The notes beneath the pieces are model-generated. The model had not been told where the DNA came from, made no database searches, and saw only the letters and a program-made list of their open reading frames with translations. 64,000 nt of DNA from the NCBI RefSeq assembly GCF_054482525.1, contig NZ_CM137006.1; one strand, given 5' to 3'. Positions 14,373-57,120 of the stretch are shown here, in pieces. The stretch's first letter is position 1. The number at the start of each line of letters is the position of its first letter. The translations under genes were made by a program, and so were the position numbers.

Positions 14373-14379
14373 TTTGTAT

Positions 14380-14460
14380 TGCCTGATGTGGCGTGACTAC
14401 GTCATATCAGGCGGTCGGATAACGCGATGACGCCGCATCCGACAAACGCATACTATGCTT
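14380..14460. repeat. REP-like palindromic element(s) in the cheZ-flhB intergenic region
   Basis: GCCTGATG...CATATCAGGC and GATGACGCCGCATCCGACA motifs typical of REP units. Confidence 0.5.
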
Positions 14461-35689: not shown

Positions 35690-35830
35690 GATCGGTCGCT
35701 CGCGGCGCATCCGACACTGGCAGTGTTGCCTGATGCGCCGCTATTCGCGTCTTATCAGGCATATACCAGAGATAGCGAACCATAGGTCGGATAAGGCGCT
35801 CGCGCCGCATCCGACAAATGTGTTCAGCGA
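35690..35830. repeat. BIME/REP cluster between ruvB and znuB
   Basis: several copies of GCCTGATGCGCCGC... and CGGATAAGGCGCTCGCGCCGCATCCGACA palindromic units. Confidence 0.7.
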
Positions 35831-49410: not shown

Positions 49411-50589
49411 TTAAGCTTGTACTTTTATCTGTGCTGCGGCGTGCTTTGCGCGCTCAATCGCTTCATCAACACTCTCTGCAGTAGCCAGTGCCACCCCCAG
49501 ACGACGGCTGCCATCAATTTCCGGCTTACCAAATAAACGAATCTGTAGGCCTGCGCCTACGGCATTCTGCACATTATCAAACGTGACATTCTGACTGGTC
49601 AGTTGTGGCAGGATAACGGCAGAAGCTGCAGGACCATACTGACGGATCCCGCCAACCGGAAGTCCGAGGAAGGCACGTACATGCAGGGCAAACTCTGAGA
49701 GATCCTGAGAAATTAACGTCACCATCCCGGTATCATGTGGACGAGGGGAGACCTCACTGAAAATCACCTCATCACCACAGACAAACAGCTCGACACCAAA
49801 CAGACCATAACCGCCCAGTGCCAGCACCACTTTACGGGCAATCTCTTGCGCACGTTCAAGGGCAAGCTGGCTCATTTGCTGTGGTTGCCAGGATTCACGG
49901 TAGTCGCCATCTTCCTGGCGATGACCTACTGGTGCACAGAAATGGACGCCATCCACCGCGCTGACGGTTAGCAGGGTAATTTCGAAGTCAAACTTAACGA
50001 CGCCTTCAACAATTACGCGGCCCGCTCCGGCGCGACCGCCTTGCTGAGCGTACTCCCATGCATGAGCAAGTTGCTCTGCAGAACGAATAAACGTCTGCCC
50101 CTTGCCGGAGGAACTCATCACCGGTTTAACAATGCAGGGATAGCCGATTTCAGCAACCGCCTCGCGGAAAAGGTTTTCGTTATCGGCAAAACGATAAGTG
50201 GAAGTGGGCAGCTGCAGCTCTTCTGCCGCCAGGCGACGGATACCCTCGCGATTCATCGTTAATTTCGTTGCGCGCGCGCAGGGGACAACATTCAGTCCTT
50301 CCTCTTCAAGTTGGATCAGCATATCGGTGGCAATAGCTTCGATCTCCGGCACGATATAATGTGGTTTTTCCAGTTCAACCACACGGCGTAATGCATCACC
50401 ATCAAGCATATTAATGACATGGGAGCGATGCGCGACATGCATGGCTGGTGCGTCGGCATAGCGATCAACGGCAATCACTTCTACGCCGAGACGCTGACAC
50501 TCGATTGCCACTTCTTTACCCAGTTCACCGGAGCCTAATAACATCACGCGAGTTGCTGCCGGACGCAGCGCAGTGCCTAATAACGTCAT
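49411..50589 (-). CDS. purT: formate-dependent phosphoribosylglycinamide formyltransferase PurT
   Basis: 392-aa ORF, ATP-grasp family, matches PurT. Confidence 0.95.
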
Positions 50590-50626
50590 AACGAATATCC
50601 CCTGATTAATTCCGCGCGCAGTATAA

Positions 50627-50642
50627 ACGAAAACGTTTGCGC
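50627..50642. promoter_or_regulatory. PurR box upstream of purT
   Basis: reverse complement GCGCAAACGTTTTCGT matches the PurR operator consensus ACGCAAACGTTTTCNT; 38-53 bp upstream of the purT start. Confidence 0.75.
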
Positions 50643-50687
50643 GTGTCTTTATTGCTGATGTTGATTTCCCAACCGAAAAGAAATATA

Positions 50688-50703
50688 CTGTATAAAATCA
50701 CAG
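50688..50703. promoter_or_regulatory. LexA (SOS) box upstream of yebG
   Basis: CTGTATAAAATCACAG fits CTGT-N8-ACAG, 20 bp upstream of the yebG ATG. Confidence 0.8.
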
Positions 50704-50722
50704 TTATTATGAGAGGCTGCAA

Positions 50723-51013
50723 ATGGCGGTTGAAGTTAAATACGTAGTCATTCGTGAGGGCGAAGAGAAAATGTCGTTTACCAGCAAAAAGGAAGCCGAT
50801 GCTTATGACAAAATGCTTGATACGGCGGATCTGCTTGACACCTGGCTGACAAATTCTCCAGTGCAAATGGAAGACGAGCAACGTGAAGCCCTTTCGCTAT
50901 GGCTGGCAGAACAAAAAGATGTGCTTAGCACCATTCTGAAAACCGGCAAATTACCGTCCCCACAGGTCGTCGGTGCTGAATCCGAAGAGGAAGATGCCTC
51001 ACACGCGGCCTGA
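50723..51013 (+). CDS. yebG: SOS-inducible protein YebG
   Basis: 96-aa ORF MAVEVKYVVIREGEEKMSFTSKKEADAYDK. Confidence 0.9.
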   Translation: MAVEVKYVVIREGEEKMSFTSKKEADAYDKMLDTADLLDTWLTNSPVQMEDEQREALSLWLAEQKDVLSTILKTGKLPSPQVVGAESEEEDASHAA

Positions 51014-51031
51014 AGCAACTTGCGCTCCTGA

Positions 51032-51436
<405 letters not shown>

Positions 51437-51439
51437 TGG

Positions 51440-51560
51440 CTTCTGATAATTCGATTGACCGTTGGCGGATGCGGCGCGAATGCCTTGTCCGCCCCACAAC
51501 GCACCACAATCGTAGGCCTGAGAAGACGCAACAGCGTCGCATCGGGCAATCAGCATCAAA
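51440..51560. repeat. REP-like palindromic elements between yebF and yebE
   Basis: GGATGCGGCGCGAATGCCTTGTCCGCC and CGTAGGCCTGAGAAGACGCAACAGCGTCGCATCGGGC motifs. Confidence 0.5.
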
Positions 51561-51762
51561 CAGTGCTACTCAAAACGTCAAACTACTTTCACCTAAAATA
51601 CCCTTATCACCTGATATACAGTGAACACCTTACCTGGCGCGAATTTCTTTGAATAACGGCCTACCGACCCGCTTATTTGCGCATCTTTTGTCTCGATATA
51701 CATTTTCTGACATCCTCATCCGCTATGCTACAGGCACTAAAAATGGTTATTGAGGAGCAAAT

Positions 51763-52422
51763 ATGGCTAACTGGTTAAATCAACTGCAATCCTTGCTTGG
51801 GCAAAGCAGTTCTTCTGCCTCCTCGTCTGCGGATCAGGGATTGGGCAAACTTTTAGTGCCAGGCGCATTAGGCGGACTGGCTGGGCTGCTGGTCGCAAAT
51901 AAATCAGCACGTAAACTTCTTACGAAATATGGCACCAACGCGTTACTGGTTGGCGGCGGAGCGGTCGCGGGTACGGTGCTGTGGAATAAATACAAAGATA
52001 AAATTCGCGCGGCGCATCAGGACGAACCGCAGTTTGGCGCGCAAAGTACGCCGCTGGATGAGCGTACGGAACGTTTGATCCTTGCGCTGGTCTTTGCCGC
52101 TAAAAGTGATGGTCATATTGATGCCAAAGAACGTGCGGCAATCGACCTGCAATTGCGTGAAGCCGGCGTGGAAGAACAGGGGCGTGTACTCATTGAGCAG
52201 GCAATCGAACAACCGCTGGATCCACAACGCCTGGCTACCGGGGTCCGCAATGAAGAAGAGGCGCTGGAAATCTATTTCCTGAGCTGCGCGGCTATTGATA
52301 TTGACCATTTTATGGAACGCAGTTACCTGAATGCACTGGGTGACGCGCTGAAAATCCCCCAGGATGTTCGTGACGGCATTGAACGCGATCTCGAACAGCA
52401 AAAACGTACTTTGGCGGAATAA
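51763..52422 (+). CDS. yebE: DUF533-family inner membrane protein YebE
   Basis: 219-aa ORF matching YebE. Confidence 0.9.
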
Positions 52423-52585
52423 TTCCGCTCTCTGGATAGCCTGAAGTTGACTATTTCGGGCTATCCAGAACCGCACAGCCATTTGAGCAGGCTGATTTTC
52501 TCTGTCTGCATAACATTCGATATCCGCGCCATTACCTGTCATCATGTGACTGCTCCCCGCCCTGTCGGGCGAGGCTTCCCACTTC

Positions 52586-53762
52586 TTAAGCCGCAACCGT
52601 CTGTGTGACGGATTTACGCTGGCCTCCATGGGCAGAAACGACGAGTCCCGCCGCTTGTAATTCCAGTATGCCCTTGCGTTTGATGTTGAGCGCCGCGTTG
52701 ATATCGCGGTCATGTTCAACTCCACACTCTGGACACTGCCAGATGCGCTTATGTAATGGCATCTCCGACATTTTGTGACAGCAGCAGTGGCAGGTCTTCG
52801 AACTGGCGAACCATTGATCCAGTTTCACCAGATGCACACCTTTCTCTGTTGCTTTGTATTCCAGTTTTGTGATGAATCCAGACCATCCAGCATCGCCTAT
52901 CGCACGAGCCAGATGGTGATTTTTCATCATATTTGCCGTTTTCAATGTCTCGACAATTACCGCTTGGTTTTCGTCAACAATTGCGCGAGATAACTTGTGC
53001 TGGAAATCGGCACGGGCACTGGCTACCCGTTCGTGAACGGCTGCAAGTTGTATTCTGGCTTTGCGCCTGTTTGCGCTCCCTTTTTTCTTACGGGACAGTG
53101 CTTCCTGCTTCCTGCTTCCGGCGCAGGTTGCGACTTGCATTGATTAGGTGGCGGGGACTGGCAATTTTATTGCCGTCCGATTTGATGACAAAATGCGCCA
53201 GCCCCATATCCAGCCCTGTCACATTTGATATCAGTGCGGGCTTTGCCGGCGCTTCCATCCCGTCGTCACAGAGTAACGACGCGTAGTATTTCCCGGTTGC
53301 GCTGCGGCTCAACGTGATACTTTTCAGCATTCCCGTAATTTCACGATGTAAACGCGCTTCAATCGGCAAGATTTTCGGTATTTTTATCGCACCATCAAGG
53401 ACTTTTATGCCAACACAATGATAGCTCGATTGTCTGCCGTGTTTACTTTTAAAGGTTGGTTTACCTGCTTTCAGTTTCGGATTGAAAAAGTTAGAAAAAG
53501 CCACGTCGAGGTTAATTACCGCCTGCTGCAACGCAATAGAATCATATTCTTTAAGCCATCCATACCGGCGGGATTTCTTCGCCACTGCAAGCAGTGGTTT
53601 GAGGTCTTTACGCGGGTTTAAATTTACGCGGTGCCGCTGGTAAGAATGTTTCTTGATATGCAGAGCTTTGTTGTACGCAAAACGCACTGCACCGAACTGG
53701 GCGTTGATAAATTCAGCCTGTTCTGGTGTCGGATAGATGCGTACTTTTGTTGCTCTTAACAT
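52586..53762 (-). pseudogene. tnpB: tnpB (IS605 OrfB / RNA-guided nuclease family), split by a frameshift
   Basis: ORF 53088..53762 (N-terminal part, HTH and RuvC-I GLDMGL) and ORF 52586..53140 (RuvC-II IVETL, zinc finger CHCC...CPEC, RuvC-III DRDINAA) are adjacent and in different frames; the break coincides with three tandem copies of a 7-bp unit at 53100..53120. Confidence 0.75.
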
Positions 53763-53818
53763 AATCAGCGCTCATTGATATAATGCTTTTATTTTAACAC
53801 TTTAGGTGAATATATCAA

Positions 53819-54232
53819 TTGAGTAATCATGATGATTTACTGGCGGGATTTCTCCGCAAACGACACAGTGTCAGTAAGCTGGTTGTGCACCTTATTTTTA
53901 CGACAAAGTATCGACGCAAACTATTCGACAGTCAGATGATCGCTCAGTTGCGTGAGGCTTTTGGCTCCGCTGCGGCAAAGCTTGAATGCGAAATTATTGA
54001 GATGGACGGGGAGCCAGACCATGTACACCTGCTGGTTGCCTACCCGCCAAAACTGGCGGTCAGTGTGATGGTCAATAATTTAAAATCGGTATCATCACGT
54101 TTGCTACGCCAGCAGAACGCGCATTTACGTATGCAGAGTAAAACGGGGCTTTTGTGGTCGAGATCGTACTTTGTCTGTAGCACCGGAGAGGCAACGATTG
54201 AAACGCTCAGAGCCTACGTTCAGAGTCAGTAA
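53819..54232 (+). CDS. tnpA: IS200/IS605-family Y1 (HUH) transposase TnpA
   Basis: 137-aa ORF with HVHLL (HUH) motif and C-terminal catalytic Tyr context WSRSYF; apparent TTG start 9 nt downstream of an AGGTGA ribosome-binding site. Confidence 0.7.
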   Translation: MSNHDDLLAGFLRKRHSVSKLVVHLIFTTKYRRKLFDSQMIAQLREAFGSAAAKLECEIIEMDGEPDHVHLLVAYPPKLAVSVMVNNLKSVSSRLLRQQNAHLRMQSKTGLLWSRSYFVCSTGEATIETLRAYVQSQ

Positions 54233-54373
54233 ACACCTGATTGATCTTTAAAGCCCTGCGGGCTTTTCGCCTTATATCCCCGCCCGCATTGGGCGAGGGT
54301 TTACGGCGTTTTTCGCTAAGCAATGACTACCCTGTTTCGCTTGCATCTCCGGTGAGTTTTGCCACCCTTATAA

Positions 54374-57120
<2,747 letters not shown>

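What the first reader, a model, noticed from the sequence alone, without database searches (positions are those of the whole stretch)
52431..52467. Unusual hairpin after yebE with no U-tract, next to the IS insertion site
CTGGATAGCC - 17 nt - GGCTATCCAG is a perfect 10-bp inverted repeat 9 bp after the yebE stop, not followed by a T-run, so it is not a typical intrinsic terminator. It lies about 70 bp from the inferred IS200/IS605 left junction. It could be a protein-binding site, an RNA processing element, or a structure that attracts hairpin-targeting transposition.
Basis: seen in the sequence. Interest (0 to 1): 0.3.

Follow-up and report, generated by a model that had tools for sequence, protein, structure and literature searches.

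The report
Stem-loop ending the yebE transcript
A very stable RNA hairpin sits right after the E. coli yebE gene; it most likely marks and protects the end of the yebE messenger RNA, an ordinary and already described kind of element, and has nothing to do with the insertion sequence 77 bases away.

Summary
The inverted repeat is real, but bigger than described and one base off. As RNA it is a 17-bp stem (two G.U pairs) with a 5-nt loop at 52431-52469, about -27 kcal/mol. It is the most stable 45-nt fold on either strand of the 64-kb window. It starts 9 nt after the yebE stop and has no U-tract.

It is native DNA, present in 5425 of 5426 complete E. coli genomes and single-copy. ISEc46 (52546-54315) is a later insertion found in about 400 genomes.

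The hairpin occurs only in Escherichia, at the start of a genus-specific spacer of roughly 120 nt. In 76 loci from other genera, the yebE stop is generally followed closely by the conserved ptrB upstream block instead.

Across Escherichia lineages, two stem pairs changed on both sides and stayed paired. Every one-sided change gives G.U on the yebE-sense strand. Downstream sequence is C-rich and G-poor.

[quoted passage not shown] No 3'-end or Rho data for yebE were found, so the function is inferred. ISEc46 selects a TTAG next to its other end, not the hairpin. Low interest.

The parts
51763..52422 (+). yebE coding sequence (219 aa, TerB-family/DUF533 inner-membrane protein); stop codon TAA at 52420-52422
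   Evidence: ORF list. RefSeq annotation of matching loci.
52431..52447 (+). 5' arm of the main stem-loop (UCUGGAUAGCCUGAAGU)
   Evidence: The core AUAGCCUGA is invariant in all Escherichia lineages sampled.
52448..52452 (+). Loop UGACU
   Evidence: Loop positions vary within E. coli: T52452 to G in AF57 and GMF054, C52451 to A in EC361. Loop length differs in other Escherichia (6-8 nt).
52453..52469 (+). 3' arm of the main stem-loop (AUUUCGGGCUAUCCAGA); the predicted mature 3' end of yebE mRNA lies at or just after 52469
   Evidence: The 3'-end position is inferred by analogy with PMC6061677, not measured.
52476..52506 (+). Weak second hairpin CAGCC-N9-GGCUG (52476-52494) followed by the U-rich tail AUUUUCUCUGUC
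   Evidence: Seen in folds. The region 52470-52510 is not more structured than shuffles (z = -0.76). L005 carries a compensated CAGUC/GACUG; L021 and L022 have a different hairpin here with no U-run.
52470..52545 (+). First part of the C-rich, G-poor spacer downstream of the hairpin (rut-like); in IS-free strains it continues directly into 54316-54332
   Evidence: On the intact MG1655 spacer, the C/G ratio per 78 nt is 1.7-2.45. The window's + strand has median 0.92, 95th percentile 1.6 and 99th percentile 2.09.
52546..54315 (-). ISEc46 (IS200/IS605 family), 1770 bp. This is context, not part of the hairpin element. tnpB is frameshifted (52586-53762, - strand); tnpA is 53819-54232 (+). Subterminal hairpins lie near 52555-52574 and 54283-54303.
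   Evidence: Junctions found by alignment with empty sites. Annotation of strain 1190. Present at this junction in about 400 of 5426 genomes. The 7-bp tandem insertion was found by comparison with the intact copy.
54316..54319 (-). CTAA on the + strand (TTAG on the - strand): the tetranucleotide abutting the tnpA-side end of the IS, its probable target motif
   Evidence: The same flank occurs at an independent ISEc46 site on plasmid pEF7-18-51_1. Three related tnpB-only elements have CTGA there.
54333..54377 (+). Conserved block TGTTTCGCTTGCATC...TTTTGCCACCCTTATAAGATG upstream of ptrB (ATG at 54401); probable ptrB promoter region, and the downstream limit of the Escherichia-specific spacer
   Evidence: Conserved from Escherichia through Citrobacter, Salmonella, Enterobacter and Kluyvera. 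An RpoS-holoenzyme SELEX peak lies in the ptrB-yebE spacer (PMC5493296).

Best explanation
The hairpin is an RNA element in the very short 3' UTR of the yebE mRNA. When yebE is transcribed, the 39 nt starting 9 nt after the stop codon fold into a 17-bp stem-loop.

Because no U-tract follows, RNA polymerase is not expected to terminate there by the intrinsic mechanism. Transcription is instead ended further downstream, most likely by Rho loading on the C-rich, G-poor spacer that follows the hairpin. A weak hairpin with a U-rich tail at 52476-52506 may contribute.

3'-to-5' exonucleases (PNPase, RNase II) then trim the transcript back to the base of the stem. The stem stops them, giving a precise and stable 3' end near 52469-52472.

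The element arose in the Escherichia lineage as part of a spacer of roughly 120 nt. That spacer separates yebE from the ptrB promoter region, so it also limits read-through from yebE into ptrB.

Shown: the structure, its single-copy and genus-restricted distribution, the conservation of pairing, the strand asymmetry, and the C>G tract. Inferred: Rho dependence, the 3'-end position, and the stabilising effect.
For: 1. Extreme stability on the sense strand: -27.0 kcal/mol, z = -8.3. The antisense strand gives -19.9 because the two G.U pairs become A.C mismatches. It is the top-ranked local fold in the window.

2. Position: 9 nt after the stop of a gene whose neighbour ptrB runs in the same direction.

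3. Conservation: 5425 of 5426 E. coli genomes carry it. The core is found in all 10 Escherichia loci and in none of 76 loci from other genera.

4. Pairing is preserved while sequence changes:
- G35-C65 becomes U-A in L021 and L022.
- A45-U55 becomes U-A in L021 and L022, read in the structural register by eye.
- One-sided changes are C40 to U in EC361, C61 to U in H22 and C66 to U in L021, all giving G.U, plus G46 to A in L021/L022, which turns G.U into A-U.
- U42.G58 is invariant.
- 94.9% of cells pair in register, against 16-43% when the partner columns are slid.

5. No U-tract follows, and the terminator scan makes no call.

6. The C/G ratio reaches 2.45 per 78 nt just downstream, above the window's 99th percentile of 2.09.

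7. These are the features reported for steady-state 3' ends of Rho-dependent E. coli transcripts: a stable stem-loop, reduced U content, C-over-G enrichment downstream, and protection from PNPase and RNase II (PMC6061677).
Against: - No experimental 3' end, Rho dependence or half-life data for yebE could be retrieved. The text held for the supplements of Adams 2021 and TERMITe 2025 shows no 3' end at K-12 1,928,8xx-1,929,0xx. Several other supplements are not held.
- Covariation rests on only four Escherichia lineages plus three E. coli variants. The shuffle control is weak: 36 of 500 shuffles reach the observed score.
- A 17-bp stem is longer than I would expect for a typical terminator-like stem-loop (my own impression, not measured here).
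- The weak downstream hairpin with its U-rich tail leaves room for some intrinsic termination.
- Citrobacter, Salmonella and Enterobacter manage without any such hairpin, so the element is dispensable for yebE function as such.
Confidence: 0.55

Rival explanations
1. The region is a composite intrinsic (Rho-independent) terminator. The big hairpin acts as a pause or stabiliser, and the small hairpin CAGCC-N9-GGCUG with the tail AUUUUCUCU (52476-52506) releases the transcript.
For: The tail has 5 U in the first 8 nt after a 5-bp stem with 4 G-C pairs. L005 shows a compensated C-G to U-A change in this small stem.
Against: The 9-nt loop and 5-bp stem make a weak hairpin. Region 52470-52510 folds no better than shuffles (z = -0.76), and its minimum-energy fold is a different pairing. 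The terminator scan did not call it. L021 and L022 replace it with another hairpin that lacks a U-run. EC361 and AF57 carry uncompensated mismatches in it.
Confidence: 0.13
2. The hairpin is a functionless relic of the DNA that created the Escherichia-specific spacer, for example the end of an old mobile element. It persists only because the genus is young.
For: The spacer of roughly 120 nt, including the hairpin, is absent from the 76 loci sampled from other genera. By my count from the alignment, arm identity between E. coli and L022 (about 75%) is no higher than for the rest of the spacer (about 78%).
Against: All six substitutions in the 14-pair core between E. coli and L021/L022 keep or improve pairing, and within-species stem variants are G.U only. 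No second copy or relative turns up in E. coli genomes, plasmids or phages with word-11 blastn. Metagenome hits to the core outside yebE have unrelated flanks. No terminal repeats or target duplications were noticed at the spacer ends in the alignment with other genera; they were not searched for specifically.
Confidence: 0.15
3. The hairpin is a regulatory RNA site for a ribonuclease or RNA-binding protein, for example RNase III cleavage or a 3'-UTR-binding protein controlling yebE mRNA level.
For: It is a long, nearly perfect helix on the sense RNA. yebE mRNA has been reported as a post-transcriptional (CsrA) target, although the site was not mapped (PMC5389547).
Against: From general knowledge, 17 bp is shorter than typical RNase III substrates of about two helical turns. 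The GGA motif lies inside the stem, not in a loop as CsrA prefers. Searching papers for yebE together with ProQ found nothing relevant, and no other report of protein binding at this site came up.
Confidence: 0.1
4. The repeat is a DNA-level palindrome bound by a dimeric protein, or extruded as a cruciform.
For: It has 11-bp perfect arms.
Against: The arms are 17 nt apart centre-side if only the perfect part counts, which is unlike known operator geometry. The pairing extends through T.G positions that are mismatches in DNA. Changes preserve pairing rather than half-site sequence. No promoter is nearby.
Confidence: 0.04
5. The hairpin is a structure that guided the IS200/IS605 element to this site.
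For: The IS is only 77 nt away. Flanks of some other copies also contain stable hairpins within 150 nt, as intergenic gene ends commonly do.
Against: 5025 of 5426 genomes have the intact spacer, hairpin included, without the IS. The shared flank motif is TTAG or TCAG at the far, tnpA-side end, while the hairpin-side flanks are unrelated at all 5 sites compared. From general knowledge, this family selects a tetra- or pentanucleotide in single-stranded DNA.
Confidence: 0.03

Closest known systems
[quoted passage not shown]
   Same: It is a stable stem-loop just past the gene end with no U-tract and no upstream A-tract. C-over-G enrichment follows immediately downstream. The presumed role is blocking PNPase and RNase II.
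   Different: The 3' end and Rho dependence of yebE were not measured here. The stem (17 bp, -27 kcal/mol) seems unusually long and stable for this class (my impression, not measured). The element is restricted to one genus.
Intrinsic (Rho-independent) terminators
   Same: It is a stable hairpin directly after a stop codon, on the sense strand.
   Different: There is no U-tract (3' flank AACCGCAC) and no A-tract upstream. Only 8 of 17 pairs are G-C.
REP/BIME extragenic palindromes acting as mRNA 3' stabilisers
   Same: It is an extragenic hairpin after a gene end that can block 3' exonucleases. Real REP-like units lie nearby, between yebF and yebE (51418-51566).
   Different: It is single-copy and has no REP consensus. 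No other copy exists in 5425 genomes.
Subterminal hairpins of IS200/IS605 elements (ISEc46 ends at about 52555-52574 and 54283-54303)
   Same: It is an imperfect hairpin in the same 2-kb region.
   Different: The sequence is unrelated (the IS ends are CCCCGCCC-N4/5-GGGCGAGG). It lies outside the element and is present in strains without the IS.

Membership tests
Intrinsic (Rho-independent) terminator | Stable stem-loop on the transcript at the gene's 3' end | tested here: met
   -27 kcal/mol, z = -8.3; starts 9 nt after the yebE stop.
Intrinsic (Rho-independent) terminator | Run of U (T in DNA) immediately 3' of the stem | tested here: not met
   The 3' flank is AACCGCACAGCC. The terminator scan makes no call.
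3' stem-loop of a Rho-dependent transcript (Dar and Sorek class) | Stable stem-loop not followed by a U-rich sequence, at the end of a transcription unit | tested here: met
   Class definition from PMC6061677.
3' stem-loop of a Rho-dependent transcript (Dar and Sorek class) | C-over-G enrichment (rut-like) immediately downstream | tested here: met
   C/G ratio of 1.7-2.45 per 78 nt on the intact spacer, against a window 99th percentile of 2.09.
3' stem-loop of a Rho-dependent transcript (Dar and Sorek class) | Dominant steady-state RNA 3' end mapped at the base of the stem | not testable with these tools
   No yebE 3' end appears in the supplementary text held.
3' stem-loop of a Rho-dependent transcript (Dar and Sorek class) | Read-through increases when Rho is inhibited (bicyclomycin) | not testable with these tools
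   The bicyclomycin table held for Adams 2021 lists only + strand sites in ptrB and yebG, none for yebE.
REP/BIME or other dispersed repeat family | Many copies per genome sharing a consensus | tested here: not met
   One place per genome, or two only where the IS splits the spacer. No plasmid or phage relatives. Metagenome core hits outside yebE have unrelated flanks. No Rfam family matches the hairpin.
IS200/IS605 end or target structure | Lies at the insertion point, or resembles the element's subterminal hairpins, and recurs at other insertion sites | tested here: not met
   It is 77 nt from the junction and unrelated in sequence. The shared flank motif (TTAG or TCAG) is at the opposite end.

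The most novel reading that the evidence does not exclude
The spacer of roughly 120 nt, comprising the long hairpin and the C-rich tract, may be a module acquired by the Escherichia ancestor. It would have converted a tightly linked yebE-ptrB pair, as still seen in Citrobacter and Salmonella, into two insulated transcription units. In that case the unusually long 17-bp helix would be more than an exonuclease block. It could be a specific binding or cleavage site that tunes the level of the envelope-stress-induced (Cpx-regulated, from general knowledge) yebE mRNA.
Probability: 0.1. Interest if true: 0.35.

Novelty: new member of a known kind. Interest (0 to 1): 0.13.

Why it matters
The finding has modest importance. 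It gives a concrete, testable prediction for where the yebE mRNA ends: K-12 about 1,929,001-1,928,997 on the - strand. That spacer carries no annotation in NC_000913.3. It also shows a lineage-specific gain of a 3'-end module between two co-directional genes.

The IS is a later, polymorphic arrival that chose a TTAG motif and cut the C-rich tract downstream of the hairpin in two.

For annotation, it is a reminder that hairpins after stop codons without a U-tract are a recognised class and not anomalies.

Tried and rejected
- **Rfam scan of 50500-55000 at E <= 1.** Nothing on the hairpin; only weak naRNA4 (REP-like) hits between yebF and yebE.
- **Promoter and terminator consensus scan.** No site at or next to the hairpin.
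- **Literature and supplement searches for a mapped yebE 3' end, Rho dependence or protein binding.** Nothing usable was found, and several supplements and two papers are not held.
- **Repeat-family hypothesis.** Rejected by word-11 blastn against E. coli genomes, plasmids and phages. The five 'plasmid' hits are records of 0.4-4.9 Mb, apparently chromosomal DNA filed as plasmids.
- **Metagenome scan with the 9+9-nt core.** It returned 80 loci. Five are yebE loci, of E. coli or L005 type. The rest have unrelated flanks and loop lengths, consistent with chance for 18 fixed bases in a collection that size (my estimate). It added no new Escherichia variants.
- **Small-ORF reading.** The TTG ORF starting in the loop (52447...) was rejected because indels of 1-3 nt between Escherichia lineages break any frame.
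- **6-bp mini-hairpin with the stop codon in its loop (52414-52428).** Not conserved outside E. coli.
- **MAFFT alignment of the upper stem.** It put the pairs out of register, so the second compensatory pair (45-55) was read by eye and not by the counting tool.

Full report
**1. What is in the sequence**

yebE occupies 51763-52422 on the + strand, with its TAA stop at 52420-52422.

The structure is larger than described:
- T52431 and A52469 add an eleventh perfect pair.
- The repeat finder extends the arms to 15 nt at 93% complementarity.
- As RNA the whole 39-mer 52431-52469 folds into 17 consecutive pairs, including U42.G58 and G46.U54, closed by the 5-nt loop UGACU.

The energy is -27.0 kcal/mol, z = -8.3, and none of 200 dinucleotide shuffles is as good. 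In a scan of every 45-nt window of the 64-kb sequence on both strands (about 64,000 folds; mean -8.3, 0.1st percentile -22.4), this is the single most stable one at -28.0. Chance is excluded.

The 3' flank is AACCGCACAGCC, so there is indeed no U-tract. The terminator scan finds nothing there.

**2. Relation to the insertion sequence**

Alignment with IS-free strains (MG1655, AF57) and with strain 1190 fixes the junctions. Native sequence runs to 52545 (...TGTCATCAT) and resumes at 54316 (CTAAGC...). The 1770 bp in between are ISEc46, an IS200/IS605-family element with divergent tnpB and tnpA. The hairpin ends 77 nt before the junction.

The distribution shows that the hairpin is ancestral and the IS is a later, polymorphic insertion:
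- The hairpin-containing stretch is present in 5425 of 5426 complete E. coli genomes.
- The IS junction is present in about 400 genomes.
- 5025 genomes have the uninterrupted spacer.

An independent ISEc46 copy on plasmid pEF7-18-51_1 has the same CTAA next to the tnpA-side end. Three related tnpB-only elements have CTGA there. The flanks on the other side, where the hairpin lies, are unrelated at all five sites compared.

So the element selects a tetranucleotide, TTAG or TCAG read on the - strand, at its far end. This is the known behaviour of the family (general knowledge). The idea that the hairpin attracted the IS is not supported.

Some other sites also have stable hairpins within 150 nt. 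That is expected for intergenic gene ends, and there is no common distance.

**3. Distribution beyond E. coli**

A scan of one genome per bacterial species for YebE relatives returned 80 loci. I extracted the DNA after each stop codon.

The hairpin core AUAGCCUGA...UCGGGCUAU is present only in Escherichia: L004, L005, L021 and L022 (E. whittamii), plus the E. coli records. It is absent from all 76 loci of other genera.

In Citrobacter, Salmonella, Enterobacter, Kosakonia, Kluyvera and others, the yebE stop is generally followed within roughly 10-40 nt by a conserved block, TGTTTCGCTTGCAT...TTTTGCCACCCTTATAGGATG. In E. coli this block lies just upstream of ptrB, at window 54333-54377. Escherichia therefore carries a genus-specific spacer of roughly 120 nt that begins with the hairpin.

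Buttiauxella and Cedecea instead have a canonical terminator overlapping the yebE stop.

The spacer is single-copy in E. coli even by word-11 blastn. It has no relatives among plasmids or phages. The only 'plasmid' hits are records of 0.4-4.9 Mb, apparently chromosomal DNA filed as plasmids.

A metagenome scan with the 18-base core returned five yebE loci and 75 unrelated hairpins with other flanks and loop lengths. It is not a repeat family, and Rfam has no match.

**4. Is the pairing under selection, and on which strand?**

Within E. coli the stem is almost invariant. The common difference from the window is C52472 to T, outside the stem. The rare variants found were:
- Loop changes: T52452 to G in AF57 and GMF054; C52451 to A in EC361.
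- Two stem changes: C40 to U in EC361 and C61 to U in H22. Both convert a G-C pair into G.U on the sense strand.

Between lineages:
- L021 and L022 have U-A where E. coli has G35-C65.
- Read in the structural register, they have U-A where E. coli has A45-U55.
- G46.U54 becomes A-U.
- C66 to U in L021 gives G.U.
- U42.G58 is invariant in all sequences.

In register, 94.9% of cells pair, against 16-43% when partner columns are slid by 1-3. The stems remain stable in every lineage, at -18 to -21 kcal/mol with z of -5 to -6.6.

The sample is small, four lineages plus three variants, and the shuffle control is only suggestive (36 of 500). However, every substitution in the 14-pair core keeps or improves pairing. 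All wobbles are G.U on the yebE-sense strand; on the opposite strand they would be A.C, and the fold drops to -19.9 kcal/mol.

This points to a sense-strand RNA structure and not to a double-stranded DNA binding site.

**5. Mechanism**

The sequence after the hairpin is C-rich and G-poor. On the intact MG1655 spacer, the C/G ratio per 78 nt is 1.7-2.45. The window's + strand has a median of 0.92 and a 99th percentile of 2.09.

Dar and Sorek mapped the steady-state 3' ends of Rho-dependent E. coli transcripts (PMC6061677). They found that these ends:
- lie immediately downstream of stable stem-loops;
- have reduced U content and no upstream A-tract;
- are followed by C-over-G enrichment;
- show evidence that the stem-loops protect against PNPase and RNase II, with rut sites just downstream.

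The yebE hairpin has all the sequence-level features of that class. My best explanation (confidence 0.55) is as follows. Rho terminates yebE transcription in the spacer. Exonucleases trim back to the stem, and the stem defines and stabilises the mRNA end. It also helps keep yebE transcription out of ptrB.

A weak hairpin, CAGCC-N9-GGCUG, followed by AUUUUCUCU (52476-52506) could add some intrinsic termination. L005 shows a compensated change in it. However, the region is not more structured than shuffles (z = -0.76). It is replaced by a different hairpin without a U-run in L021 and L022, and it carries uncompensated mismatches in EC361 and AF57.

**6. What is missing**

I found no experimental 3' end, bicyclomycin response or protein-binding datum for this site. 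The supplementary text held for Adams 2021 and TERMITe 2025 contains no entry for yebE or for K-12 coordinates 1,928,8xx-1,929,0xx. Other supplements or papers are not held.

NC_000913.3 annotates nothing in the spacer 1,928,840-1,929,047. In K-12 the hairpin is 1,929,039 to 1,929,001 on the - strand.

The functional statement is therefore an inference from anatomy, conservation and a published class.

**7. Verdict**

- 'Not a typical intrinsic terminator' is right.
- 'RNA processing element' is near the mark.
- 'Protein-binding site' and 'transposition attractor' are not supported.

The element is an unannotated member of a known kind, so interest is low (0.13). The least ordinary aspect is that the hairpin and the C-rich tract form a genus-specific insertion between two genes that are nearly contiguous in related genera.

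Noticed in passing
window 53100-53120 (within tnpB, - strand): The window's ISEc46 copy is 1770 bp, against 1763 bp in strain 1190 and on plasmid pEF7-18-51_1. An extra 7-bp tandem unit (GCTTCCT, three units here versus two) splits tnpB into ORFs of 224 aa and 184 aa, so this TnpB is a pseudogene. There are also 11 point differences from the strain 1190 copy.
   Followed up: partly
window 54316-54319 and 52526-52545; L087, L089-L091: ISEc46 abuts CTAA (TTAG on the - strand) at its tnpA-side end at two independent sites. Related tnpB-only elements abut CTGA. The empty site TTAG|ATGATGACAGG persists in IS-free strains. From general knowledge of TnpB biology, that is the arrangement a TnpB guide RNA reading out of the tnpB-3' end would recognise.
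   Followed up: partly
window 54333-54377: The block TGTTTCGCTTGCATC...TTTTGCCACCCTTATAAGATG upstream of ptrB is conserved across many Enterobacteriaceae genera, yet no sigma-70 consensus promoter was called there. An RpoS-holoenzyme SELEX peak has been reported in the ptrB-yebE spacer.
   Followed up: no
window 52414-52428: A perfect 6-bp mini-hairpin, GCGGAA-UAA-UUCCGC, carries the yebE stop codon as its loop, directly before the main hairpin. It is present in E. coli, partly kept in L004, and not conserved in L005, L021 or L022.
   Followed up: partly
window 51418-51566 (- strand): Two REP-like palindromic units lie between yebF and yebE. They give sub-threshold Rfam hits to naRNA4 (29 and 28 bits against a gathering score of 59.5).
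   Followed up: no
L018 and L033 (Salmonella); L047, L051, L057-L061, L067, L078 (Buttiauxella, Cedecea): Other genera solved the yebE-ptrB junction differently. Salmonella has its own insert of about 120 nt between the conserved block and the ptrB start. Buttiauxella and Cedecea have a canonical terminator (CCGGG-UUAA-CCCGG followed by a U-run) overlapping the yebE stop codon.
   Followed up: no
window 35699-35743 (+) and 14375-14419 (+): These are the next most stable local hairpins in the window, at -27.5 and -25.8 kcal/mol. Neither is followed by a U-run in the 12 nt shown. They were not examined further.
   Followed up: no
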